Shown here in pieces: positions 4,836 to 38,656 of a stretch of 64,000 bases of DNA. Made by a program: the position numbers and the translations under genes. The stretch comes from Escherichia coli. Its GTDB lineage: Bacteria > Pseudomonadota > Gammaproteobacteria > Enterobacterales > Enterobacteriaceae. Under the pieces are notes generated by a model. It ran no database searches. It worked only from the letters and a program-made list of their open reading frames with translations, and was not told the DNA's origin. The DNA is taken from the NCBI RefSeq assembly GCF_011045215.1, contig NZ_CP049201.1; one strand, written 5' to 3'. Position 1 is the stretch's first letter. Every line of letters starts with the position of its first letter.

Positions 4836-5858
4836 GAGATCGCTTAACAGAACGGCGATGCTTTGACCTCCCGCTGTTTGTTCAAGCGCAATTTTGACAA
4901 TAATTGTCAACGGCACGGAAAGCAGCATACCCACCGGTCCTAACAACCATCCCCAAAAAATCAACGACAAAAATACCACCAATGTCGAAAGCCCCAGCCC
5001 ACGTCCCATGATGCGCGGCTCCAGAATATTGCCGAAGACCAGATTAATCAGCAGATATCCCGCCAGCACCAGCAACGCTTCGTAGAAGCCATTAAACACC
5101 AGTACCTGAGCGATAGGGGGGATTGCCGCGAGAACTGAACCAATATTAGGGATGTAATTAAGCGCAAAGGCCAGCAATCCCCAGACAAAAGCGAAGCGAA
5201 CATCGAGTGCGGCGAGCATCGCCCAGGCGACCAGGCCGGTGATGATGCTGATGGCTGTTTTCAGCACCAGATAATGAGACACACTGTCAATCGCGCGTTG
5301 AATCGCCGCCATCCCTTCAACCGGACGCGCCATCATTTGCTGAAATTTTCCGGGCAATTGTGGCACTTCGAGCAGCATAAACAGCACCGTCAGCAGCAAT
5401 AAAAATATTGATGACATGGCATTAGATAACTGCGTCAATAAGTTGGTGAGCAACGTCATCGCCGCGTTCGGATCAATGTAATGCGCCAGTTGGTCAACTG
5501 AGACGTCAATCCCTACGCGTTGCAACAACGGCTCAAGAGCTTGCAGCGGCGTCATAATAGAGTTGCGATATTGTGGTAACGTCCGCGTCAACTCGTTGAG
5601 CGCGGAACCCAGATAAGCTAACAGCAACACCATAGCCATCACGATGATGGTCATCAAAATCGACACCGCCAGTACACGCGGCACTCGCCAGCGGACCATG
5701 TGTTGCACCAGCGGGTTAAGAATAACAGCAATAAATAATGCGAGAATAAACGGCACGATGATCTCGGCGGCAAAACGGATACCGCAGAGAATAATGACCA
5801 GCATTCCCAACATAATGACGATTTTTAGGCCATTGAGCGTGATGATCGGCTTTGCCAT
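4824..5858 (-). CDS. tqsA: AI-2 exporter, PerM/AI-2E family membrane protein TqsA
   Basis: 344-aa polytopic membrane ORF starting [26 protein letters not shown]. Synteny as in K-12. Confidence 0.9.
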
Positions 5859-6266
5859 GCTTGTCCCCGTTTTTTCTTCCTTTGCTAATAATGTCTTTTT
5901 CGCTCCGTCATCATAACGAAAATCAAACCGCTCAGGTAAAGAAGTGAAAATATTTTGAGTTAATTCTTAAGCTATGATACAAATCAGGCGTGTTCAACTA
6001 CCGAGGACAATTATCATCCGCGATGACGAGAAGCAACACTGCGGATAATTGTAATATTATGGACAATTTGTTCAGGACGTTATTTTCTACATTTACCCAT
6101 CTTCGTACCTCATCCACTATCTTGCTCGTAGGTGAGCAGCACTGGCGCAACGCGCTTTAGTCCTTTCTTCTGCCAAAGCTTGCCCTATACGCGGGGCTTG
6201 ACCACTTTACTTTGGTTTCGCTGAATTAAGCGAAAATTAGAATAATTCTCTTGCAGGAGAAGGACA

Positions 6267-16787: not shown

Positions 16788-19214
16788 TTAAACCTTTTCG
16801 ATCTGGACAAGATTGCTGTGCGACGGGTTTCCCTTTGCCAGCGGTGAAGGGCGGTGAGAGGTCAGAATATTAATACTGCCGCCGTGATCGACCCGGTCAC
16901 CAAACATATCCGCTTTAAGCCACGCACCTTGCCCGATGGCGGTAACGCCAGGCAGAATACGCGGAGTCACTTTTGCGGCAATCAGCATTTCTCCATTATT
17001 GTTAAATACCCGCACGGTATCGCCATGACGGATACCGCGAGCCTGAGCATCAATGGGGTTGATCCACACCTCTTGTGGGCAGGCCTGCTGTAACACATCA
17101 ATATTGCCGTAGCTGGAGTGGGTACGCGCTTTGTAGTGGAAGCCCGTTAACTGCAGTGGATAGGTTTTCCGCAGGGGATCGTCCCAGCCATCAAAACCTG
17201 GGGTATACGCAGGAAGGGGATGAATAATTTCATCTTTTTTCAATTCCCAGGTATCTGCAATCTTCGCCAGTCGTTCAGAATAAATTTCGATTTTCCCCGA
17301 AGGTGTTTTCAACGGGTTTGCCTGTGGATCTTCACGGAATGCGCGGAAAGCGACGTAGTGTTCTTCCGGGCATTTTTTCTTAAAGATCCCGGTCGTTTTC
17401 ATCTCCTCGTAGTCGGGCATCTCAGGGTTACGTTCCTTCGTTTTCGCATGGAGATATTTGATCCATTCATGCTGACTGCGACCTTCAGTAAAGGTTTGAT
17501 AAACGTCCGGTCCTAAGCGGTTGGCGACTTCACTCAGCATCCAGTAGATGGGTTTGCGTTCAAATTTTGCTGAGGTTGCGGGTTGGGCGAGGATCACATA
17601 GCCCATATTCCCTGCAGATTCATGAGAGATAAGGTCTTCTTGCTCTGTTGGCATCAGGTCGGGCAACAGGATATCGCAATACTTAGCCGAGGCCGTCATG
17701 AAGTGGTCAATGCCAACAATCATCTCGCACTTGCTGTCATCCTGAAGCACCTCATGGGTGTGATTGATGTCGCCATGTTGATTGATCAATGTGTTACTGG
17801 CGTAGCACCATAAAAACTTGATGGGGACATCCAGTTTTTCTTTTCCACGAACACCATCACGGGTCGCGGTCATTTCCGTACCATGGTCGATGGCATCTGT
17901 CCATGTAAAGACGGAAATCTGCGTTTTAACAGGATTCTCGAGCATCGGGAACCATTCTACCCCCAGATCCCAGCTACCTTCGCGTACGCCTGAGTTGCCG
18001 CCGTTTATGCCGACGTTACCGGTGAGAACGGAAAGCATGGCAATAGCGCGGGATGTTTGTTCGCCGTTGGAGTGTCGTTGTGGCCCCCAACCCTGACAAA
18101 TATAAGCAGGTTTTGCTGAACCGATCTCTCGTGCCAACTGGATAATTTTTTCTGCCGGGATGCTGGTGATTTTTGCTGCCCATTCCGGCGTTTTAGCTAT
18201 GCCGTCAGGCCCTTCGCCCAGAATATAGGCTTTATAATGCGCGTTACGTGGTGCGTTGGCGGGAAGCGTTTTTTCATCGTAACCAACACAATATTTGTCG
18301 AGAAATGGCTGATCGACCATGTTTTCAGTAATCAGTACCCAGGCAATCGCACAGGCCAGTGCGCCATCGGTGCCAGGGCGAATGGGCAGCCATTCATCTT
18401 CACGTCCGGCAGCTGTGTCGTTATAACGTGGATCGATGACGATCATGCGTGCGTTTGAACGTTCGCGGGCTTGCTCGACGTAGTAAGTGACACCACCACC
18501 GCTCATCCGCGTTTCTGCCGGGTTATTTCCGAACATAACGACCAGTTTCGTATTGGCGATATCATCCGGGCTGTTGCCATCATTGGCACCGAACATATAA
18601 CTCATTGCGGCACTGATCTGTGCGGTACTGTAGCTGCCATAGCGACTGAGAAAACCACCGCAAGAGTTCATCAGACGGTACGGGACGTTTGAGTTGGTGA
18701 TGTTTCCGCCATCTACACCTGTTCCGTACAGGACATGTACAGCCTCATTGCCGTAATCTTTTAGGATCTGCCGAAGATTATCACTGATGGTATCCAGGGC
18801 TTCGTCCCAACTTATCCGTTCAAATTTACCTTCACCGCGCTTGCCGACGCGCTTCATGGGATATTTCAACCTATCAGGATGATTCATCCGTCGGCGGATA
18901 GAGCGCCCGCGTAAACACGCTCGAACCTGATGATTACCGTAGACGTCGTCACCTGTCGTATCAGACTCCACCCAGTACACGGTGTCATCTTTCACATGCA
19001 AACGTAACAGACAGCGGCTCCCGCAGTTAACGGTGCAGGAACTCCAGACCGCTTTCTCTTCTACCGGAGCCTCTGCCGCCCGGACCATTTGGGAAAATGG
19101 CAGAGTGAAAGCACTGCTTGCCAGCGCAAGACTGCCAAGTGCGGAGGTTTTCATCAGACTTCTACGGCTGATTTCAGCCTTCATGAGCGCCTCTGTGGTA
19201 TGGATTTTCATCAT
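16788..19214 (-). CDS. ynfF: Mo-bisPGD oxidoreductase catalytic subunit YnfF (DmsA paralog)
   Basis: 808 aa with Tat signal SRRSLMKTSALGSLALA and an N-terminal Cys cluster CTVNCGSRC. Confidence 0.9.
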   Translation of the reverse strand: MMKIHTTEALMKAEISRRSLMKTSALGSLALASSAFTLPFSQMVRAAEAPVEEKAVWSSCTVNCGSRCLLRLHVKDDTVYWVESDTTGDDVYGNHQVRACLRGRSIRRRMNHPDRLKYPMKRVGKRGEGKFERISWDEALDTISDNLRQILKDYGNEAVHVLYGTGVDGGNITNSNVPYRLMNSCGGFLSRYGSYSTAQISAAMSYMFGANDGNSPDDIANTKLVVMFGNNPAETRMSGGGVTYYVEQARERSNARMIVIDPRYNDTAAGREDEWLPIRPGTDGALACAIAWVLITENMVDQPFLDKYCVGYDEKTLPANAPRNAHYKAYILGEGPDGIAKTPEWAAKITSIPAEKIIQLAREIGSAKPAYICQGWGPQRHSNGEQTSRAIAMLSVLTGNVGINGGNSGVREGSWDLGVEWFPMLENPVKTQISVFTWTDAIDHGTEMTATRDGVRGKEKLDVPIKFLWCYASNTLINQHGDINHTHEVLQDDSKCEMIVGIDHFMTASAKYCDILLPDLMPTEQEDLISHESAGNMGYVILAQPATSAKFERKPIYWMLSEVANRLGPDVYQTFTEGRSQHEWIKYLHAKTKERNPEMPDYEEMKTTGIFKKKCPEEHYVAFRAFREDPQANPLKTPSGKIEIYSERLAKIADTWELKKDEIIHPLPAYTPGFDGWDDPLRKTYPLQLTGFHYKARTHSSYGNIDVLQQACPQEVWINPIDAQARGIRHGDTVRVFNNNGEMLIAAKVTPRILPGVTAIGQGAWLKADMFGDRVDHGGSINILTSHRPSPLAKGNPSHSNLVQIEKV

Positions 19215-34247: not shown

Positions 34248-35193
34248 ACGCCCACTGGTTATAAACACGCAGCTGGCAATGAAAATCGGCTTAAACGAAG
34301 CCATTGTTTTGCAACAACTGCACTACTGGTTGAGAGATACCAACTCCGGTATGGAATGTGATGGTGTTCGCTGGATTTATAACACAACGGAACAATGGCT
34401 GGAACAGTTCCCATTCTGGTCAGAGTCAACGTTAAAACGCGCGTTTGCAAGTCTGAAAACGCTGGGGCTTTTGCGTTGTGAAAAGCTCAATAAATCAAAG
34501 CGCGATATGACCAATTTCTACACGATCAACTATGGGAGCGAGCTTTTAGATGGTGGCAAATTGAACGAATCCATCGGTTCAAAATGCGCCGCTCCATCAG
34601 GTCAAAATGACACGATGGAAGAGGTCAAAATGAAACGCTCCATTGGTTCAAAACGACCCAATGTCATCGGGTCAAAATGGCCTGATGATCTTACAGAGAA
34701 TACAACAGAGATTACTACAGAGAATAAAAACACTTTTCGTCCGGAAGCTTCGCAACCGGACCCGCAGACGACTGAACAGGATTTTTTAACCCGGAACCCC
34801 GACGCGGTTGTGTTTAGTGTGAAAAAACGCCAGTGGGGTAGCAGGGAGGATTTGGCGTGTGCGCAGTGGATTTGGGGGCGGATCGTGAACCTTTACGAAC
34901 AGGCTGCCAGCGACGATGGAGAGATCATGCGACCAAAAGAGCCTAACTGGACAGCCTGGGCCAATGACGTGCGCACAATGCGGATGCTGGATGGCAGAAG
35001 CCACAGACAAATTTGCGAAATGTTTGGTCGGGTACAGCGGGATCCATTCTGGGTAAAAAACATCATGAGCCCGTCAAAACTCCGCGAAAAATGGGACGAA
35101 CTGGTCATCCGCCTGGGACGTTCACCTGTACAGCGTTGTGTGAATCATATTTCTGAACCGGATACAGAAATTCCGCCTGGTTTCAGAGGATAA
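34228..35193 (+). CDS. Replication initiator (lambda O-like role) containing the origin iterons
   Basis: Start at MSLLFAERPLVINTQLAMKIGLNEAIVLQQLHYWL (an N-terminal wHTH typical of phage replisome organisers). Five regularly spaced iterons and an A/T-rich block lie inside the gene. Confidence 0.7.
   Translation: MSLLFAERPLVINTQLAMKIGLNEAIVLQQLHYWLRDTNSGMECDGVRWIYNTTEQWLEQFPFWSESTLKRAFASLKTLGLLRCEKLNKSKRDMTNFYTINYGSELLDGGKLNESIGSKCAAPSGQNDTMEEVKMKRSIGSKRPNVIGSKWPDDLTENTTEITTENKNTFRPEASQPDPQTTEQDFLTRNPDAVVFSVKKRQWGSREDLACAQWIWGRIVNLYEQAASDDGEIMRPKEPNWTAWANDVRTMRMLDGRSHRQICEMFGRVQRDPFWVKNIMSPSKLREKWDELVIRLGRSPVQRCVNHISEPDTEIPPGFRG
34570..34728. repeat. Putative phage origin: five about 17-bp iterons at 23-24 bp spacing plus a 3 x 12-bp tandem A/T-rich repeat
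   Basis: tccatcggttcaaaatg (34570), tccatcaggtcaaaatg (34593), ..gaggtcaaaatg (ends 34632), tccattggttcaaaacg (34639), gtcatcgggtcaaaatg (34663). Then ACAGAGAATACA/ACAGAGATTACT/ACAGAGAATAAA at 34693-34728. Confidence 0.7.
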
Positions 35194-35233
35194 GTTTTGA
35201 TTTCAGGTCATGAGGTAATTTTAAGGGGGACTT

Positions 35234-35635
35234 GTGGCAAAAGTTTTTACACAAGAAGAGCGGGAAAAAATTAAAGGGCAGGTGGTGGAACTCGTGCGCC
35301 AGAGCGGTCGTGAGACGTTACGGCAACTGGAAGCTAAAACAGGTGCGACTAGATATCTGATGAGCGTTCTTGCCAGAGAGCTGGTAGCCAGTGGCGATGT
35401 ATACAACTCCGGCTACGGGTTATTCCCGTCTGAACAGGCGCGTAAGGACTGGCAAAACGCCCGCAAAAAACTATCGAGGGCAAAGGTGAAGAAAACAGCT
35501 GTGGTTGATCCGGACCTTATCTGGTCGTTACCTGATGGAGAAATACGTCGCTACGACAGTCGCCTAAACATAATCTGTCGCGAGTGCCGGATGAGTGAAG
35601 TTATGCAGCGCATACTGGCATTTTATCAGGGATAA
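35234..35635 (+). CDS. Hypothetical 133-aa protein after the initiator gene (function unknown)
   Basis: GTG start with a strong SD (aaggggga). It sits where lambdoid phages carry P or a helicase loader, but I see no such motif. Confidence 0.5.
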   Translation: MAKVFTQEEREKIKGQVVELVRQSGRETLRQLEAKTGATRYLMSVLARELVASGDVYNSGYGLFPSEQARKDWQNARKKLSRAKVKKTAVVDPDLIWSLPDGEIRRYDSRLNIICRECRMSEVMQRILAFYQG

Positions 35636-35731
35636 TGTTAGGTATTTTAGACGTTACTAGATTAAAAAGCATTAGTTCAGGAGTGAATTGACATTCTCAT
35701 TTTTCATGGCACAGGGTAGATCTGGCGTGGT

Positions 35732-35757
35732 TGTCCGCTTTGTGCCAGAAGCGGACA
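35732..35757. repeat. Stem-loop A flanking the NUDIX/HAD cargo (shares the GTCCGCTT...AAGCGGAC arms with stem-loop B)
   Basis: tgtccgctt-tgtgccag-aagcggaca, a 9-bp stem with no T-run. GTGCCAGA is repeated at 35742 and 35766. Confidence 0.5.
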
Positions 35758-35831
35758 TAGCAGGTGCCAGATGCATTTGTTATTCTTCATTGAATTGAGC
35801 AGTATCCTTAACAGGAACTCTGAATACATAA

Positions 35832-36470
35832 ATGAAGATGAAAAACATGTCTGAAGTGTTGACCCAAGAAAAGCTTATTTTTGTTGCCCAGAGACTAAAG
35901 GCCCTCGCGCAGTCAGGCCTGACCTATTCAAAAGACGTCTTTGACAAGGAACGCTATGAAGCCTTGCGTGAAATTGCCGCTGGACTGCTGAGTTCGCAGT
36001 TTGATATTAGCCGCAATGATTTGTTTCATGTATCGGAAACGGGTTACGCGACGCCCAAAACAGATGTGCGTGCGTTTATCCTGCGTAATAATCGTATTCT
36101 GATGGTGAAAGAGGCTGCAGATGGATTATGGAGTCTTCCTGGCGGATGGGCAGATGTTGGAGATACACCTTCTGAAGCTGTGCGTCGAGAGGTCGAAGAA
36201 GAAACCGGATTAAAAGTCAGAGTGACTAAACTATTGGGAGTTTGGGATCGTAATCTTCACGGCCATCCGCCTTTACCCTGGCATGTTTACAAGCTGATTT
36301 TTCTCTGTGAAGAAGTAGGTGGCAGCCTGTCAATCAGCCATGAGTCACTCGATGCTGATTTTTTTGATGTCAACGACCTGCCTGAATTGTCGCTTTCAAG
36401 AATTGTGCCTGAGCAGATTGCTGTCAGCCTGAGAGTAGCGAAAGGTGATGAAAAAACATGGTTTGATTAA
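35832..36470 (+). CDS. NUDIX hydrolase with N-terminal helical extension (ADP-ribose pyrophosphatase-like)
   Basis: Near-canonical Nudix box GGWADVGDTPSEAVRREVEEETGL (REVEEETGL fits REUxEExGU). 212 aa. Several in-frame ATGs near the start. Confidence 0.8.
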   Translation: MKMKNMSEVLTQEKLIFVAQRLKALAQSGLTYSKDVFDKERYEALREIAAGLLSSQFDISRNDLFHVSETGYATPKTDVRAFILRNNRILMVKEAADGLWSLPGGWADVGDTPSEAVRREVEEETGLKVRVTKLLGVWDRNLHGHPPLPWHVYKLIFLCEEVGGSLSISHESLDADFFDVNDLPELSLSRIVPEQIAVSLRVAKGDEKTWFD

Positions 36471-36493
36471 CTTTCTTCTGCAACCATTAAGGA

Positions 36494-37138
36494 ATGGCAA
36501 TGATATTCAACGCTAAGGGTTTTTTATTCGATATGGACGGTACGCTGGTTGATTCAACAGCCGTAGTGGAAAACGTCTGGAGAGATTTTTGTGCAGAATA
36601 CGGTCTTGATTCTCAGGCTGTGATTGCTTACGCACACGGGCGGCAAACGATTGATACACTAACGCATTTTATTGGTGCAGGTGAGAAAACCAATAAAATC
36701 GCGGCCTCACTCGAAGAGGTTGAAATCAACACGACAGAAGGCGTTACTGAAGTAAAAGGGGCCGCTGCACTCTTATCAAAACTGCCACCGGATAGCTGGG
36801 CACTTGTCACTTCTGCAGGCAGAATGCTTGCCGAAAACAGGATGAAAGCGGCTAATCTCCCCTTACCCAGAGTAATGGTGTGTGCAGAAGATGTAATGAC
36901 GGGAAAACCAAGTCCCGAGGGTTACATCAAAGCAGCTTTGGCTTTGGGCCTTGAGCCTGGTGAATGCGTGGTATTTGAGGATGCATCTGCGGGTATAAAA
37001 GCAGGGCTGGCAAGTGGAGCTTCGGTAATAGCTGTTCAGCCTGACGCTCTGGGATCATCTGAAGCCCATGCCGTCAGCGAACTGTCTGACATTATGGTCA
37101 AGATTTCCGGAGAACGTTTCAATATCATCTGTGGTTAA
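36494..37138 (+). CDS. HAD-superfamily sugar phosphatase (YfbT/HxpA-like)
   Basis: Motif I FLFDMDGTLVDS, motif II VTSAG, motif III GKPSPEGY, motif IV FEDASAGIKAG. Colinear with remembered YfbT. Confidence 0.8.
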   Translation: MAMIFNAKGFLFDMDGTLVDSTAVVENVWRDFCAEYGLDSQAVIAYAHGRQTIDTLTHFIGAGEKTNKIAASLEEVEINTTEGVTEVKGAAALLSKLPPDSWALVTSAGRMLAENRMKAANLPLPRVMVCAEDVMTGKPSPEGYIKAALALGLEPGECVVFEDASAGIKAGLASGASVIAVQPDALGSSEAHAVSELSDIMVKISGERFNIICG

Positions 37139-37198
37139 TCACGTTACACAATACGCATCAATGGACGCTGAGTAGTTCGCGAGTTTTAAACTTCCAAC

Positions 37199-37222
37199 GT
37201 CCGCTTTTCGCTCAAAGCGGAC
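37199..37222. repeat. Stem-loop B flanking the NUDIX/HAD cargo
   Basis: gtccgcttt-tcgctc-aaagcggac, a 9-bp stem with no T-run, 61 nt after the HAD stop. Confidence 0.5.
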
Positions 37223-37483
37223 TAGAAGGTTAGCTTGTATCGGACTTTGCGTATTAAATGACTAGTGGTTGAGCCCCATTTCCACAGAAAAAATCAGAGA
37301 AACTATACCCAATAGTTGTATTGAATCACTGACGAGACAGCCTCATATTCATCAGGACTGGTGTACGTCCAATACAGGAGGTTGTGGTGCTGGTTCTCAA
37401 ATGTGCGCTGGCTATTACGGCTGTAATGGCGATTTATTGTCTTGCTATTGTTCTTATGGATCGCCTTTCTGACTGATTTCATA

Positions 37484-37512
37484 TTGGCGAGGTAACGGTA
37501 GTTAAGTAGAAT
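37484..37512 (+). promoter_or_regulatory. Candidate hok mRNA promoter
   Basis: TTGGCG-N17-TAGAAT, placing +1 near 37519, at the start of the tac element. Confidence 0.55.
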
Positions 37513-37566
37513 GGCTGCGGGTGCTTGAGGCTATCTGCCTCGGGCATGAACACCAACGGCAGATAG

Positions 37567-37639
37567 AGAAAAGCCCCAGTTAACATTACGCGTCCTGCAA
37601 GACGCTTAACATTAATCTGAGGCCAATTTCATGCTAGAC
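37567..37639 (-). ncRNA. Candidate Sok antisense RNA
   Basis: Minus-strand TTGCCT (37674-69)-N17-TAACCT (37651-46) faces the mok start region. There is a small hairpin gcgtc/gacgc, and the U-run is only 4 nt. The boundaries are guesses. Confidence 0.3.
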
Positions 37640-37843
37640 ACATGTAGGTTAGCCTCTTACGTGCCGAAAGGCAAGGAGAAGCAGGCTATGAAGCAGCAAA
37701 AGGCGATGTTAATCGCCCTGATCGTCATCTGTTTAACCGTCATAGTGACGGCACTGGTAACGAGGAAAGACCTCTGCGAGGTACGAATCCGAACCGGCCA
37801 GACGGAGGTCGCTGTCTTCACAGCTTACGAACCTGAGGAGTAA
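37631..37843 (+). CDS. Mok (in-frame upstream extension whose translation is coupled to hok)
   Basis: MLDTCRLASYVPKGKEKQA followed by the Hok sequence. Same layout as the K-12 MokB/MokC entries as I remember them. Confidence 0.55.
   Translation: MLDTCRLASYVPKGKEKQAMKQQKAMLIALIVICLTVIVTALVTRKDLCEVRIRTGQTEVAVFTAYEPEE
37688..37843 (+). CDS. hokD: Hok-family type I toxin (HokD/RelF-like)
   Basis: MKQQKAMLIALIVICLTVIVTALVTRKDLCEVRIRTGQTEVAVFTAYEPEE (51 aa). Confidence 0.9.
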   Translation: MKQQKAMLIALIVICLTVIVTALVTRKDLCEVRIRTGQTEVAVFTAYEPEE

Positions 37844-37911
37844 GAGACCCGGCGAGGGATAAATCCCTCGCCACCTCTGATGTGGCAGGCATCCTCAACG
37901 CACCCGCACTT

Positions 37912-37938
37912 AACCCGCTTCGGCGGGTTTTTGTTTTT
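37912..37938 (+). terminator. hok mRNA terminator
   Basis: aacccgc-ttcg-gcgggtt followed by tttgttttt. Confidence 0.75.
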
Positions 37939-38059
37939 ATTTTCAACGCGTTTGAAGTTCTGGACGGTGCCGGAATAGAATCAAAAATACTTAAGTAGCG
38001 CGCAGGGATAAGAGGGATGGTCCCTTAAAGGGGAGAGCTAATTATCCGGAAGGATTCTG

Positions 38060-38311
38060 ATGATGAACATCGAAGAACTGCGTAAAATTTTTTGTGAAGA
38101 TGGCCTCTATGCTGTGTGCGTTGAAAATGGAAACATTGTTAGTCATTACCGCATTCTGTGTTTGCGAAAGAATGGGGCTGCGTTAATTAATTTTATGGAT
38201 GCTCGGGTCACGGACGGATTTATCTTGCGCGAAGGTGAGTTTGTCACTTCATTACAGGCACTGAAAGAGATCGGAATAAAAGCAGGCTTTTCAGCTTTTG
38301 CAGAAGAATAA
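38060..38311 (+). CDS. rem: Rem (small Qin-type protein of unknown function)
   Basis: 83 aa starting MMNIEELRKIFCEDGLYAVCVENGN... Matches my memory of Qin Rem and its position between hokD and ydfU. Confidence 0.65.
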   Translation: MMNIEELRKIFCEDGLYAVCVENGNIVSHYRILCLRKNGAALINFMDARVTDGFILREGEFVTSLQALKEIGIKAGFSAFAEE

Positions 38312-38377
38312 ACTCATCTACAATCTTGCGCGGGGCTGAACTCCCGCTGAGTAACACCGTGCCACCGGAGAAAACCG

Positions 38378-38656
38378 ATGGCACGCAACGTAAAATATTA
38401 CAATTCTGATAATTCGCCCGTTCTTGCCTGCACGCACGAGCGGTATTCTCACGCATTCAAGTCTGAATGGTTCCAGCACCCTCCATGCACTGAAGAGCAG
38501 GCTGAATGGATAATTCAGTGTTACCGCAGGCGCGGATACGAGGTTAAGAAAGCCCTTAGTCTCGACTACCGTCACTGGATAATCTCAGTCAGATTGCCTT
38601 ACTCCGAACGCCCACCGCGTCCGTCCCGTACATTCCAGCAACGCATCTGGAGGTAA
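38378..38656 (+). CDS. Hypothetical 92-aa protein
   Basis: ORF with an ATG start that abuts the next gene (1-nt gap). No motif recognised. Confidence 0.45.
   Translation: MARNVKYYNSDNSPVLACTHERYSHAFKSEWFQHPPCTEEQAEWIIQCYRRRGYEVKKALSLDYRHWIISVRLPYSERPPRPSRTFQQRIWR

What the first reader, a model, noticed from the sequence alone, without database searches (positions are those of the whole stretch)
35732..37222. NUDIX hydrolase + HAD phosphatase cargo pair bracketed by two related stem-loops inside the early-right region
Two + strand genes that are not normal lambdoid equipment sit between the replication genes and hok. One is a NUDIX hydrolase (35832-36470), with Nudix box GGWADVGDTPSEAVRREVEEETGL and an N-terminal helical extension as seen in ADP-ribose pyrophosphatase-like enzymes. 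The other is a YfbT/HxpA-like HAD sugar phosphatase (36494-37138; DMDGTLVDS, VTSAG, GKPSPEGY, FEDASAG). The pair is bracketed by two 9-bp-stem hairpins that share the arms GTCCGCTT...AAGCGGAC: 35732-35757 lies 75 nt before the first ATG, and 37199-37222 lies 61 nt after the last stop. Neither hairpin has a T-run. This looks like a discrete mobile moron unit. Inference: sequential pyrophosphatase and phosphatase chemistry on a nucleotide-sugar or ADP-ribose-type molecule. One possibility is removal of an immune signalling or NAD-derived nucleotide (counter-defence). Another is a metabolic benefit to the lysogen. I cannot tell which from sequence alone.
Basis: partly seen in the sequence, partly recalled or inferred. 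Interest (0 to 1): 0.55.

Follow-up and report, generated by a model that had tools for sequence, protein, structure and literature searches.

The report
Swappable phage gene cassette with boundary sites
The NUDIX and HAD genes are ordinary cargo, but the two hairpins around them are the shared left and right boundary sites of a widespread cassette-swapping system found in lambda-like phages, P2-like phages and genomic islands, which may explain how such elements trade defence and metabolic genes.

Summary
A NUDIX gene (35832-36470) and a HAD phosphatase gene (36494-37138) lie between two related 24-nt palindromes (35733-35756 and 37199-37222).

The palindromes are not private to this gene pair. 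They are two site types:
- L: GTCCGCT-n-TGTGCCA-rr-AGCGGAC
- R: GTCCGCT-yy-TCGCTCA-n-AGCGGAC

These sites bracket at least 77 different cargos. The settings include the lambdoid replication-to-hok hotspot, the P2 Z/fun hotspot (including fun(Z) of phage P2 itself), tandem arrays, and non-phage islands.

The same NUDIX-HAD cassette, 99.3% identical, sits in P2-like phages. Identity stops at the outer edges of the palindromes. In both phage families the outer arm and centre of each site stay with the flank. The inner arm travels with the cargo, so exchange happens at the site centre. Only the 7-bp arms and the centres are conserved, as sequence and without compensatory changes.

A 200-aa tyrosine recombinase gene always lies between an R-type and an L-type half-site, in E. 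coli, Proteus, Idiomarina and Cycloclasticus. I infer an integron-like system with two heterospecific sites; this is not shown. The cargo's function is unresolved. Captured house-cleaning enzymes are the most likely reading, and counter-defence has no support.

The parts
35234..35635 (+). Last conserved early-right gene before the hotspot (DUF977 / 'LygF'-like, 133 aa). Context only.
   Evidence: ORF list. PF06163 DUF977 at the same position in sister prophages. Annotated LygF in phages mEp460_ev081 and Evi.
35640..35732 (+). Lambdoid left flank of the hotspot, ending ...CACAGGGTAGATCTGGCGTGGTT.
   Evidence: 98% identical in phage mEp460_ev081, where the match ends at the L site. A scan with this flank alone, independent of the hairpin, found an L site after 131 of 134 copies.
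35733..35756 (+). L site: arm GTCCGCT, T, centre TGTGCCA, GA, arm AGCGGAC. The left arm and centre belong to the phage flank; the right arm belongs to the cargo.
   Evidence: Family consensus and information content. Linkage of each half-site to flank or cargo. Position 35740 is T in lambdoid flanks and C in P2 flanks.
35832..36470 (+). Cargo gene 1: NUDIX hydrolase with a Nudix_N domain, of the CDP-Chase / YjhB-like family.
   Evidence: Pfam. PDB 3q1p/3q4i/6nch, E = 7.2e-50 over residues 19-204. 5366 homologues found.
36494..37138 (+). Cargo gene 2: HAD-IA phosphatase related to YfbT/HxpA sugar phosphatases. An alternative start at 36500 gives the 212-aa form called in other genomes.
   Evidence: Pfam and NCBIfam. 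Best solved relative is yeast glycerol-3-phosphatase 2qlt, 1.6e-22. Called as 212 or 214 aa in sister loci.
37199..37222 (+). R site: arm GTCCGCT, TT, centre TCGCTCA, A, arm AGCGGAC. The left arm belongs to the cargo; the centre and right arm belong to the phage flank. Its reverse complement differs from the L consensus at only 2 positions.
   Evidence: Half-site linkage. Positions 37214 and 37219 differ from the P2 copy and match the lambdoid-specific right half.
37223..37300 (+). Lambdoid right flank of the hotspot (TAGAAGGTTAGCTTG...), leading to sok/hok.
   Evidence: Shared with phages Evi and mEp460_ev081, which carry other cargo. It is the right flank in 57 of 198 R sites.
37519..37843 (+). 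sok RNA and mok/hok toxin locus. Context only; marks the downstream edge of the hotspot.
   Evidence: Rfam RF01794 sok, 115 bits. hok ORF at 37631-37843. PF01848 HOK_GEF in sister loci.

Best explanation
The two hairpins are the left (L, centre TGTGCCA) and right (R, centre TCGCTCA) boundary sites of a cassette-exchange system. The system is shared by lambdoid prophages (between the replication genes and hok), P2-like phages (the Z/fun hotspot between gpG and gpFI), and genomic islands or ICE-like elements. The NUDIX-HAD pair is one of many interchangeable cargos.

Shown:
- The cargo unit runs from the centre of L to the centre of R.
- The outer arm and centre stay with the resident element, and the inner arm comes with the cargo.
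- Cassettes also occur in tandem, separated by a fixed R-18 nt-L junction.
- The hotspots sampled are never empty.

Inferred, my preferred mechanism:
- The sites are core sites for a tyrosine recombinase: two 7-bp inverted arms around a 10-nt central region with a 7-nt invariant core (what I call the centre). The differing L and R centres would act as heterospecific overlap regions.
- The enzyme would be the roughly 200-aa recombinase whose gene always sits between an R-type and an L-type half-site (R*-int-L*). In this lysogen it would have to act in trans, because the window does not encode it.
- L x L or R x R recombination between neighbouring cassettes would release a circle carrying one L and one R. 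That circle could re-enter at any L or R site in another element.
- A lone cassette cannot be excised, which would explain why hotspots are swapped but never emptied.

Cargo function (inferred, weak). The NUDIX enzyme would split a nucleoside-diphosphate-X compound (CDP-alcohol, nucleotide-sugar or ADP-ribose type). The HAD enzyme would then dephosphorylate the phospho-product. The pair most likely represents captured enterobacterial house-cleaning or metabolic genes of modest benefit to the lysogen (about 45%). An anti-phage role (about 25%) and a counter-defence role (about 15%) are less likely.
For: Same cassette in P2-like phages. It is 99.3% identical in phages P24C9, 10W and 11W, and the match limits are window 35733-37223. 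Inside that span there are 11 mismatches. Three lie in the outer halves of the sites. Identity in the 40 nt beyond each edge is 13/40 and 11/40.

Same sites, other cargo. Phages mEp460_ev081 and Evi have the same sites at the same lambdoid position but carry different genes.

Survey of IMG/VR. I found 233 L and 198 R sites, 131 co-oriented L...R pairs, 77 cargo clusters of 403-6715 nt, and 44 clusters each of left and right flanks. Two cargos occur in both P2 and lambdoid flanks.

Scans with flank sequence alone, independent of the hairpin.
- 131 of 134 lambdoid left flanks are followed by an L site. The other 3 carry what looks like an IS3 end inserted inside the L site.
- All of the listed site variants after 130 P2 left flanks are L-type or degenerate L-type.
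- There are 36 (lambdoid) and 52 (P2) distinct flank-to-flank lengths, and the minimum is about 840 nt.
- The flank-proximal arm and centre are near-invariant within each context, and the cargo-proximal arm varies. A permutation test gives z up to 11 for flank-side linkage and about 4.5 for cargo-side linkage.

Sequence conservation, not structure. The centres carry about 1.3-2.0 bits per position and the arms 1.0-2.0. Stem substitutions are uncompensated.

Arrays. Tandem cassettes have a constant 16-18 nt R-L spacing. The doublet occurs in 937 of 5426 E. coli genomes, at 1-4 places each.

Recombinase.
- Four independent contexts become homologous exactly at an R-type site 35 nt upstream of the gene.
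- In all 16 copies of 84% identity or more that I inspected, the stop codon is followed by a small hairpin, then TGTGCCA-like-rr-AGCGGAC-like; the arm is degenerate in a few copies. After that the sequences diverge.
- The same geometry holds in Proteus, Idiomarina (with a perfect R site 7 kb downstream) and Cycloclasticus.
- Three of four homologues at about 59-62% identity with downstream sequence are followed by a variant centre, GGCCA(G/T)AAGC. This matches a GC-richer hairpin family.
- The catalytic R, H-x-x-R, H and Y residues are present.
- The gene is in 889 of 5426 E. coli genomes.

Literature. P2 hotspots were reported never to be empty, and the route of defence-gene exchange with other elements was called unknown (PMC13586616).
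Against: - No experiment links the recombinase to the sites. Co-location is also what a passenger gene fixed in a junction would show.
- Most hotspots, including this window, lack the recombinase gene, so action in trans has to be assumed.
- Cargo-proximal arms are often degenerate. This is awkward for a site that should bind a recombinase dimer.
- The P2 flank carries AGCAGAC, which mismatches its partner arm.
- Crossovers within 24 bp of identity could also be produced by Red/RecET-type or RecA recombination.
- No excised circle or empty site was observed.
- An identical palindrome occurs as a multi-copy REP-like repeat in Alphaproteobacteria, with no recombinase gene seen in the 8-kb windows around it.
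- For the cargo, nothing discriminates the candidate substrates or roles.
Confidence: 0.5

Rival explanations
1. The sites are conserved boundary sequences that serve only as short homology. Cassettes would be swapped by general or phage-encoded homologous recombination (RecA, Red, RecET, Erf) between 24-bp palindromes. Such palindromes may also stall replication or be cut as hairpins. On this view the small recombinase is a passenger that became fixed in one junction type.
For: - Exchange junctions fall inside a stretch of identity that a recombinase such as Red could use.
- Most hotspots lack the integrase gene.
- Cargo-proximal arms decay, as expected if no protein needs them.
- The concept has precedent: promoter-stem-loop (PeSL) cassettes in T4-type phages are reported near insertion, deletion and replacement sites and to mediate modular shuffling (PMC2839356, title and abstract only). 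Boundary sequences have also been described in lambdoid phages (my own knowledge).
Against: - It does not explain why the loop (centre) is at least as conserved as the arms across unrelated contexts.
- It does not explain why L and R keep two distinct centres everywhere.
- It does not explain why the same 24-nt sites occur in at least 40 unrelated flank contexts, and in Idiomarina, Proteus and Cycloclasticus together with the same recombinase in the same geometry.
- It does not explain why the R-L spacing in arrays is fixed at 16-18 nt.
- 24 bp is at the lower limit for RecA-dependent exchange (my own knowledge).
Confidence: 0.3
2. The palindromes are REP/BIME-type elements. The R-18 nt-L doublets would be REPIN-like, and cassettes would move as single-stranded DNA through a RAYT (HUH) transposase. 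Alternatively, phages simply pick up chromosomal genes together with their flanking REPs from a donor species in which this REP family is abundant.
For: - Identical 24-nt palindromes (GTCCGCTTTGTGCCAATAGCGGAC) occur many times per genome in Pseudolabrys, Xanthobacteraceae and Hyphomicrobiales MAGs. They form clusters of 2-3 with about 21-nt linkers, often just after ABC substrate-binding protein genes.
- L resembles the reverse complement of R, like the inverted REP pairs of REPINs.
- Many cargos are ordinary chromosomal gene types such as LysR, MFS, SDR, GNAT and NUDIX.
Against: - In E. coli the doublet is low-copy, at 1-4 places per genome.
- A motif search found no RAYT-like HUH/Y protein in any fetched locus. 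This is a limited test.
- I saw no conserved GTAG-type 5' tetranucleotide.
- The gene consistently attached to the sites is a tyrosine recombinase, not a Y1 transposase.
Confidence: 0.07
3. The hairpins are private regulatory parts of this cassette. They would be RNA stem-loops that terminate, insulate or stabilise the NUDIX-HAD transcript, and they would move with it as part of a classical moron.
For: - Both sequences fold stably as RNA.
- They lie in the untranslated regions, just outside the two co-oriented genes.
- In the P2 copy both hairpins are present as well.
Against: - The same sites flank at least 77 unrelated cargos, on either strand relative to the sites.
- The outer half of each site belongs to the phage flank, not to the cargo.
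- Neither has a T-run or is called as a terminator.
- There is no covariation, and stem changes are uncompensated.
- There is no Rfam match.
Confidence: 0.03

Closest known systems
Integrons (IntI, attI, attC gene cassettes)
   Same: Arrays of short one-to-few-gene cassettes are separated by conserved imperfect-palindrome sites. A tyrosine recombinase gene sits next to a primary site. Under my model, excision as circles and re-insertion would account for the arrays. Cargo includes anti-phage systems, as recently reported for integrons (titles and abstracts).
   Different: The recombinase is about 200 aa, little more than a catalytic domain (catalytic-domain match from about residue 37, so only a ~35-aa N-terminal stretch). 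It scores 54 bits against the XerA/integron-integrase model, whose cut-off is 220. There are two heterotypic 24-nt sites bracketing each cassette instead of one attC of 57-141 bp. Cargo genes lie on either strand, and I assume they have their own promoters. The hosts are phages, ICE-like elements and islands. No attI or Pc-like organisation was seen.
pdif modules (XerC/XerD-dependent dif modules of Acinetobacter plasmids; my own knowledge, and a review title listed)
   Same: Discrete gene modules are bracketed by pairs of short recombination sites in inverted orientation. Each site has two arms around a short spacer. The same module is found in different replicons, with boundaries at the sites.
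   Different: By inspection, the site sequence is unrelated to dif (GGTGCGCATAA-TGTATA-TTATGTTAAAT). A dedicated small recombinase gene is associated with the sites, rather than the host XerCD. The hosts are temperate phages and islands of Gammaproteobacteria.
P2/P4 defence hotspots (Rousset et al. 2022, PMC9122126; Moura de Sousa et al. 2026, PMC13586616)
   Same: The P2 copies of this cassette lie in the known variable locus between the tail-fibre assembly gene G and the sheath gene FI. Cargo there includes PD-T7-1, PD-T7-5, DarTG, Thoeris and Pycsar components among others. The hotspot is never empty.
   Different: Neither paper mentions hairpins, palindromes, inverted repeats or stem-loops. 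The 2026 paper lists the mechanism of exchange with other elements as open. Here the boundaries are defined to the nucleotide and are shared with a lambdoid hotspot and with non-phage islands.
PeSL mobile regulatory cassettes of T4-type phages (Arbiol et al. 2010, PMC2839356) and lambdoid morons or boundary sequences
   Same: Short conserved stem-loop-containing motifs lie at the edges of variable genes and are proposed to promote modular shuffling. The NUDIX-HAD pair fits the broad definition of a moron.
   Different: PeSLs include an early promoter and are thought to act through homologous recombination. No promoter or terminator is detected at L or R. L and R are two distinct site types, and they are associated with a recombinase gene.
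REP / BIME / REPIN elements with RAYT transposases
   Same: They are 24-nt palindromes that form inverted doublets with conserved short linkers. An identical sequence behaves as a multi-copy extragenic repeat in some Alphaproteobacteria.
   Different: The sites are low-copy in E. coli. No RAYT was found. They are associated with a tyrosine recombinase of the phage-integrase fold.
Cargo enzymes: B. cereus CDP-Chase (PDB 3Q1P/3Q4I) and E. coli YfbT/HxpA sugar phosphatase
   Same: The NUDIX protein aligns over residues 19-204, including the Nudix_N helical domain and the Nudix box, at E = 7e-50. The HAD protein has all four HAD motifs, and its best family match is PRK11587.
   Different: The HAD protein scores below the equivalog cut-off (191 versus 282 bits). 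No substrate was tested. Close NUDIX relatives are usually not paired with a HAD gene. An 80%-identical NUDIX-HAD pair does exist elsewhere, without the sites.

Membership tests
Integron | IntI-type integrase (about 320 aa, with the IntI-specific extra domain) | tested here: not met
   The associated recombinase is 200-203 aa with a PF00589 catalytic domain only. It scores 54.5 bits against the XerA/integron-integrase model NF040815, whose cut-off is 220.
Integron | attC sites (R''-L''...L'-R', 57-141 bp, conserved AAC/GTT ends) at the 3' end of each cassette | tested here: inconclusive
   The cargo-side flanks show AA-n|R and L|r-TT, which recalls AAC/GTT. However, each cassette is bracketed by two separate 24-nt palindromes, and the exchange point lies in their centres, not at G|TT. 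No attC covariance model was available.
Integron | Cassettes mostly promoterless and co-oriented, expressed from Pc | tested here: not met
   Cargo ORFs lie on either strand relative to the L-to-R direction.
XerCD/dif modules | 28-bp sites matching the XerC and XerD arm consensus, with a 6-bp spacer | tested here: not met
   By inspection of the consensus GTCCGCT-N10-AGCGGAC, there is no similarity to E. coli dif. The dif sequence is from my own knowledge.
REP/BIME/REPIN-RAYT | High copy number of extragenic palindromes in the host genome | tested here: not met
   In E. coli the R-18 nt-L doublet is in 937 of 5426 genomes, at 1-4 places each. The feature is met only for the look-alike repeats in Alphaproteobacteria.
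REP/BIME/REPIN-RAYT | An associated RAYT (Y1 HUH transposase) gene flanked by the repeats | tested here: inconclusive
   A motif scan of all fetched loci found none. The test is a crude regular expression, and the loci are windows of 20 kb or less.
P2 Z/fun hotspot cargo | Location between gpG (tail-fibre assembly) and gpFI (sheath) of a P2-like phage | tested here: met
   Met for the P24C9, 10W and 11W copies and for L443. The copy in this window is in a lambdoid prophage instead.
Known anti-phage defence system (PADLOC-DB v2) | Significant match of the component proteins to a defence-system model | tested here: not met
   The NUDIX protein matches only candidate PDC-S07, at 36.8 bits over the generic NUDIX domain. 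The HAD protein has no match.
CDP-Chase-like NUDIX hydrolases (Nudix_N + NUDIX) | Nudix_N helical domain, a Nudix box, and full-length similarity to 3Q1P | tested here: met
   PF12535 and PF00293 both match. 3q1p aligns at E = 7.2e-50 over residues 19-204. Substrate specificity cannot be tested with these tools.
YfbT/HxpA sugar phosphatase (NCBIfam PRK11587 equivalog) | Score above the curated equivalog cut-off | tested here: not met
   191.2 bits against a cut-off of 282. The protein is related but is not an equivalog.
Tyrosine recombinase core site | Two inverted arm sequences around a short asymmetric, strictly conserved central region, with exchange inside that region | tested here: met
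   There are 7-bp arms around a 10-nt central region containing a 7-nt near-invariant core (1.3-2.0 bits per position). Flank and cargo linkage breaks at the centre. Binding and cleavage cannot be tested with these tools.

The most novel reading that the evidence does not exclude
L and R are the recombination sites of an undescribed integron-like cassette system that uses two heterospecific sites. The system would be driven by a minimal (about 200 aa) tyrosine recombinase that is 77-95% conserved across Gammaproteobacteria. It would move defence, resistance and metabolic cassettes between P2-like phages, lambdoid phages, ICE-like elements and chromosomal islands. It would swap cargo without ever emptying the hotspot, because a lone cassette cannot be excised.
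Probability: 0.4. Interest if true: 0.9.

Novelty: new variant of a known kind. Interest (0 to 1): 0.74.

Why it matters
How anti-phage systems and other accessory genes move so quickly between unrelated mobile elements is an open question. The 2026 survey of P2/P4 hotspots says that swaps are fast, that hotspots are never empty, and that the route of exchange with other elements is unknown.

Nucleotide-precise boundary sites shared by P2-like phages, lambdoid phages and islands, together with a candidate recombinase, make that question directly testable. They also give a simple sequence signature for finding cassettes, including unannotated candidate defence genes, and a possible natural tool for cassette exchange.

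The NUDIX-HAD cargo is of modest interest on its own.

Tried and rejected
- Rfam search of 35000-38500 at E <= 1: only sok and sub-threshold matches (weak isrK, rsmX, ceN48), and nothing at the hairpins.
- Promoter and terminator scan: nothing at either hairpin.
- Base composition: the cassette does not stand out.
- Literal search of the paper library for the site sequences: one irrelevant hit, in a fish QTL paper.
- Searches for hairpin, palindrome or stem-loop in the two P2-hotspot papers: none.
- Other literature searches for a described system: nothing relevant. One search failed on syntax.
- NARP3 as a possible NUDIX-based counter-defence: it is a PnuC/NadR pair and is unrelated.
- Phage 11W as a hoped-for 'different cargo': it is the same cassette in an N-masked record.
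- Search for empty hotspots (left flank, one palindrome, right flank): none in the loci held.
- RAYT motif search: none.
- Chromosomal NUDIX homologues in Cedecea and Pseudescherichia as a possible source operon: they are not paired with a HAD gene.
- Covariation support for an RNA structure: none found.
- I did not run structure prediction or fold searches, because the sequence matches to solved structures were already decisive at family level.
Full report
**1. What is in the window**

The window holds a Rac-like lambdoid prophage. Two co-oriented ORFs, 35832-36470 and 36494-37138, lie between the last conserved early-right gene (DUF977/'LygF'-like, 35234-35635) and the sok/hok locus.

- The first ORF has the Pfam NUDIX and Nudix_N domains.
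- The second is a HAD-IA phosphatase. Its best family match is the YfbT/HxpA-type 'sugar phosphatase' model PRK11587, but it scores below the equivalog cut-off.
- They are the only two matches to GTCCGCT-N8-12-AGCGGAC in 64 kb, against 0 in 100 shuffles.
- They fold more stably than shuffled sequence.
- Neither has a T-run, and the consensus scan calls neither a promoter nor a terminator at them.

**2. The cassette is mobile, and its limits are the palindromes**

A megablast search against deposited phages found the same 1.49-kb segment at 99.3% identity in the P2-like phages P24C9, 10W and 11W. The query match limits correspond to window 35733-37223, palindrome to palindrome. In those phages the segment lies between the tail-fibre assembly gene G and the sheath gene FI, which is the classical Z/fun variable locus.

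An ungapped comparison gives 11 mismatches inside the segment. Identity in the 40 nt beyond each edge is at background level (13/40 and 11/40). Three of the 11 mismatches lie in the outer halves of the palindromes: L position 8, and R positions 16 and 21.

In E. coli complete genomes the cassette is rare: 21 of 5426, always single-copy and at least 99% identical. An exact-protein look-up added a further context, next to IS elements and a P4-type integrase, where the R site is retained.

**3. The palindromes are generic hotspot boundaries**

The lambdoid phages mEp460_ev081 and Evi have the same two palindromes at the same position, but with different cargo. One carries a 449-aa protein on the opposite strand. 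The other carries an XRE/cupin regulator plus an acetyltransferase.

Scans of IMG/VR with the palindrome patterns, followed by approximate matching, gave these figures:

| Item | Count |
|---|---|
| L-type sites (GTCCGCT-y-TGTGCCA-rr-AGCGGAC) | 233 |
| R-type sites (GTCCGCT-yy-TCGCTCA-n-AGCGGAC) | 198 |
| Co-oriented L...R pairs | 131 |
| Distinct cargo clusters (403-6715 nt; one to six genes, on either strand) | 77 |
| Left-flank clusters | 44 |
| Right-flank clusters | 44 |

By left flank, 17 cargo clusters had a lambdoid flank, 20 a P2 flank and 45 some other flank. Two cargos (this one, and a 269-aa ORF) occur in both P2 and lambdoid flanks.

The reference phage P2 itself has fun(Z) bracketed by an L site (P2 15335-15358) and a degenerate R site (17432-17455).

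Cargo proteins include known defence components and ordinary accessory functions:
- Defence: PD-T7-1, PD-T7-5, DarT/DarG, ThsA/ThsB, PycC, LmuA, Tmn, NsnA and several PDC candidates.
- Other: LysR regulators, MFS transporters, short-chain dehydrogenases, GNAT acetyltransferases, glyoxalase and APH.
- In E. coli Nissle, a TonB-receptor/ABC iron-uptake cassette in a non-phage island.

**4. Where the exchange happens**

To avoid selecting loci by the palindrome, I scanned with flank sequence alone.

Lambdoid hotspot:
- Of 134 left flanks, 131 are followed by an L site. The other three carry what looks like an IS3 end inserted inside the L site.
- The left arm and centre of L (GTCCGCTTTGTGCCA) are essentially invariant, while the right arm varies and is sometimes degenerate.
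- At the right flank the mirror image holds: the R centre and right arm (TCGCTCAAAGCGGAC) are invariant, and the left arm varies.

P2 hotspot:
- All of the listed site variants after 130 left flanks are L-type or degenerate L-type.
- The P2 flank has its own variants: C at L position 8, and AGCAGAC as the R right arm.

A permutation test on de-duplicated sites shows the same pattern. Positions in the left half of L associate with the upstream flank (z up to 11) but only weakly with the downstream cargo (z up to 2.4). Positions in the right half associate with the cargo (z about 4.5). R behaves in the mirror-image way.

The transferable unit therefore runs from the centre of L to the centre of R.

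Both hotspots were never empty in these samples. There were 36 and 52 distinct flank-to-flank lengths, with a minimum of about 840 nt. This agrees with the published statement that P2 hotspots are never found empty (PMC13586616).

**5. Sequence, not structure, is conserved**

When sites are anchored on the loops alone, only the seven outer base pairs are conserved. Substitutions in them are almost always uncompensated. Positions 8/17 and 9/16 do not covary.

With one representative per cargo, information content is 1.3-2.0 bits across the 7-nt centres and 1.0-2.0 bits in the arms. Two or three further positions are conserved on the cargo side only: L followed by r-T-t, and R preceded by a-A-n.

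The reverse complement of R differs from the L consensus at two positions, so L and R are inverted relatives with different centres.

This is the anatomy of a protein-recognised recombination site: two inverted arms around an asymmetric central region. It is not the anatomy of a structural RNA or a terminator.

**6. Arrays, and a recombinase in the junction**

Many loci have tandem cassettes of the form L-cargo-R, 16-18 nt, L-cargo-R, with up to three in a row and a conserved linker (CTTYAGCTCAGTNAYMTC). The R-18 nt-L doublet occurs in 937 of 5426 E. coli genomes at 1-4 places each. It is therefore not a genome-wide repeat.

Two cargo intervals contained a 202-aa protein with the catalytic R, H-x-x-R, H and Y residues of tyrosine recombinases. 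It gives weak matches to Xer and FimB-type invertase models, and PF00589 is its only domain. Its position is the key point.

- Upstream. Four independent contexts were aligned: a lambdoid prophage, the E. coli Nissle island, another prophage and Phytobacter. Homology begins exactly at an R-type site (variable left arm, TCGCTCA, TAAGGGAC) 35 nt before the start codon. The enterobacterial homologues in IMG/VR with upstream sequence available show the same site.
- Downstream. In all 16 copies of 84% identity or more that I inspected, the stop codon is followed by a small hairpin (CAGGGCTG-N6-CAGCCC), then an L-type centre (TGTGCCA or close), then rr-AGCGGAC or a degenerate form of it. After that the sequences diverge.
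- The gene therefore occupies the junction compartment (R*-int-L*), the same place as the 18-nt linker. It is not in the cargo compartment.

The protein is 77-95% identical across Enterobacterales, Proteus/Providencia, Idiomarina, Cycloclasticus, Rheinheimera and Pseudoalteromonas. The geometry holds in the three of these that I examined:
- Idiomarina sp. X4: gcvP, int, L*, a 7-kb cargo (two-component system, eptA, PAP2, DAGK, sulfatase), then a perfect R site.
- Proteus mirabilis: a defence-rich island at icd with L, int, L* and R.
- A Cycloclasticus ICE-like element: int and L* lie between an arsenic module and a copper module.

Three of four more distant homologues (about 59-62% identity) with downstream sequence are followed by a hairpin and a variant centre, GGCCA(G/T)AAGC. 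This matches a GC-richer palindrome family seen in the first scan. It is a hint of enzyme-site co-variation.

The gene is present in 889 of 5426 E. coli genomes, including 42 places on plasmids. It is absent from this window.

**7. Mechanism**

Shown:
- Heterotypic L and R sites bracket interchangeable cargo.
- Junctions lie at the site centres.
- Arrays have a fixed junction, and hotspots are never empty.
- A tyrosine recombinase gene is fixed between R-type and L-type half-sites across orders of Gammaproteobacteria.

Inferred:
- The recombinase binds the 7-bp arms and exchanges strands across the centre.
- Because the centres differ, only L x L and R x R events occur.
- In an array these events excise a circle with one L and one R. 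The circle can integrate at any L or R site in another element.
- Deleting the older neighbour completes a swap.
- A single cassette, with one L and one R, cannot be excised.

This explains the arrays, the cross-family sharing and the never-empty rule. The main rival is short-homology recombination at conserved palindromes by Red/RecET or RecA, with the recombinase as a passenger. That rival fits the absence of the gene from most hotspots and the decay of the cargo-side arms. It does not explain the conserved, distinct centres, the fixed junction, or the recurrent enzyme-site geometry in distant taxa. I put the site-specific reading at roughly 0.45-0.5 and the homology reading at about 0.3.

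**8. The cargo**

The NUDIX protein aligns over nearly its full length with B. cereus CDP-Chase (3Q1P/3Q4I/6NCH; E = 7e-50). It aligns less well with a Streptococcus suis protein deposited as ADP-ribose pyrophosphatase. That CDP-Chase hydrolyses CDP-choline is my own recollection of the literature.

NUDIX homologues fall into these groups:

| Identity to the window protein | Setting |
|---|---|
| 60-74% | Single chromosomal genes in Cedecea, Pseudescherichia, Leclercia and others, without a HAD neighbour (neighbourhoods inspected for Cedecea and Pseudescherichia only) |
| 84% | A one-gene cassette between an L site and a degenerate R site, in an array |
| 80% | Paired with the HAD gene in an island that lacks the sites |

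The closest solved relative of the HAD protein is yeast glycerol-3-phosphatase. PADLOC gives only a weak generic NUDIX match to candidate PDC-S07. No paper in the library describes such a pair as a defence or counter-defence system.

Sequential pyrophosphatase and phosphatase chemistry is plausible. The substrate and the biological role remain open. I lean towards captured house-cleaning or metabolic genes. The hotspot's mixed content does not allow a defence role to be inferred from location alone.

**9. Relation to known systems, and novelty**

The system works like an integron or like pdif modules, but it fails their defining features. It has no IntI-type integrase, no attC, mixed gene orientation, and no dif-like sequence (see the membership table). 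It overlaps the known P2 defence hotspot, whose published descriptions do not mention these sites. It also resembles REP/BIME elements. An identical palindrome is a multi-copy extragenic repeat in some Alphaproteobacteria, which I cannot explain.

I found no description of the sites or of this recombinase's role in the searchable library. Older papers in subscription journals on P2 Z/fun are not held there, so prior description cannot be excluded. I rate the finding as a new variant of a known kind (site-bracketed gene cassettes).

Noticed in passing
L320-L439 (genome-contig scan), e.g. L421 881/3485/4807, L402, L404, L423, L339: The identical 24-nt palindrome GTCCGCTTTGTGCCAATAGCGGAC occurs many times per genome in Pseudolabrys, Xanthobacteraceae and Hyphomicrobiales MAGs. 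It forms clusters of 2-3 palindromes that share the stem but have loops GGGTCA, ACCCCCG or GTGCCA, separated by about 21-nt linkers (ATGTGCAGTGCAACT...). The clusters often lie just after paralogous ABC substrate-binding protein genes ending ...ADEVIE*. This is REP/BIME-like behaviour. Its relation to the enterobacterial sites is unexplained.
   Followed up: partly
L529 836-859 and 2933-2956 (phage P2, NC_001895 15335-15358 and 17432-17455): In the reference phage P2, the lysogenic-conversion gene fun(Z) is bracketed by an L site and a degenerate R site. The GenBank record annotates neither of them.
   Followed up: yes
L527 7982-8005 and 8973-8996 (E. coli K-12 MG1655, Qin prophage): Degenerate L-like and R-like sites bracket flxA, in the region between the replication-gene remnants and relBE-hokD. 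They are in inverted orientation relative to the phage's early-right direction. A separate K-12-labelled record also holds a 74-nt remnant of the R*/operator region of the small recombinase (hit H98).
   Followed up: partly
L440 2774-12785 (E. coli Nissle chromosome, NZ_CM187577.1): A non-phage island consists of site-bracketed cassettes. It includes the small recombinase, an ETEC_3214-family protein, the 269-aa ORF also seen in P2 and lambdoid hotspots, and a 5.7-kb TonB-receptor/ABC iron-uptake cassette.
   Followed up: partly
L039 9348-9386 and the equivalent position in all copies (alignment A2): A perfect 15-bp inverted repeat (CATACTCAAATCTCC-N9-GGAGATTTGAGTATG) overlaps the start codon of the small recombinase gene. 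It may be an operator or a further binding site.
   Followed up: no
Three IMG/VR loci; L447 2038-2061: IS elements target or abut the sites. What looks like an IS3 left end (my identification, from memory of the IS3 terminus) is inserted after the first three bases (GTC) of the L site in three lambdoid hotspots. In L447 an IS, which I take to be IS2 from its terminal sequence, begins directly after an L site, so the NUDIX-HAD cassette there has lost its own L site.
   Followed up: no
L458 4229-8008 (Logan contig SRR27258020_18028): An 84%-identical NUDIX homologue without the HAD gene is itself a single-gene cassette (L, NUDIX, degenerate R, 18 nt, L). It is followed by a LysR plus short-chain dehydrogenase cassette. 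The NUDIX gene family has therefore been captured by this system more than once.
   Followed up: partly
window 37852-37933: A sub-threshold Rfam match to the Hfq-binding sRNA isrK (27.4 bits, gathering score 50, E = 0.0036) lies just downstream of hok.
   Followed up: no
L002 (phage 11W, NC_070902.1) 5020-6250: The deposited record of phage 11W is heavily N-masked across the cassette. This makes it look like different cargo in BLAST summaries (33% coverage), but it is the same NUDIX-HAD cassette.
   Followed up: yes
L028 2224/3737, L090 8200/9713, L086, L105, L111: A GC-richer relative of the palindrome (GTCCGCTTyCGGyCAGAAGCGGAC) brackets about 1.5 kb in other viral contigs. The two copies are in direct orientation and differ by one base in the centre. 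Its centre matches the motif found after distant homologues of the small recombinase.
   Followed up: partly
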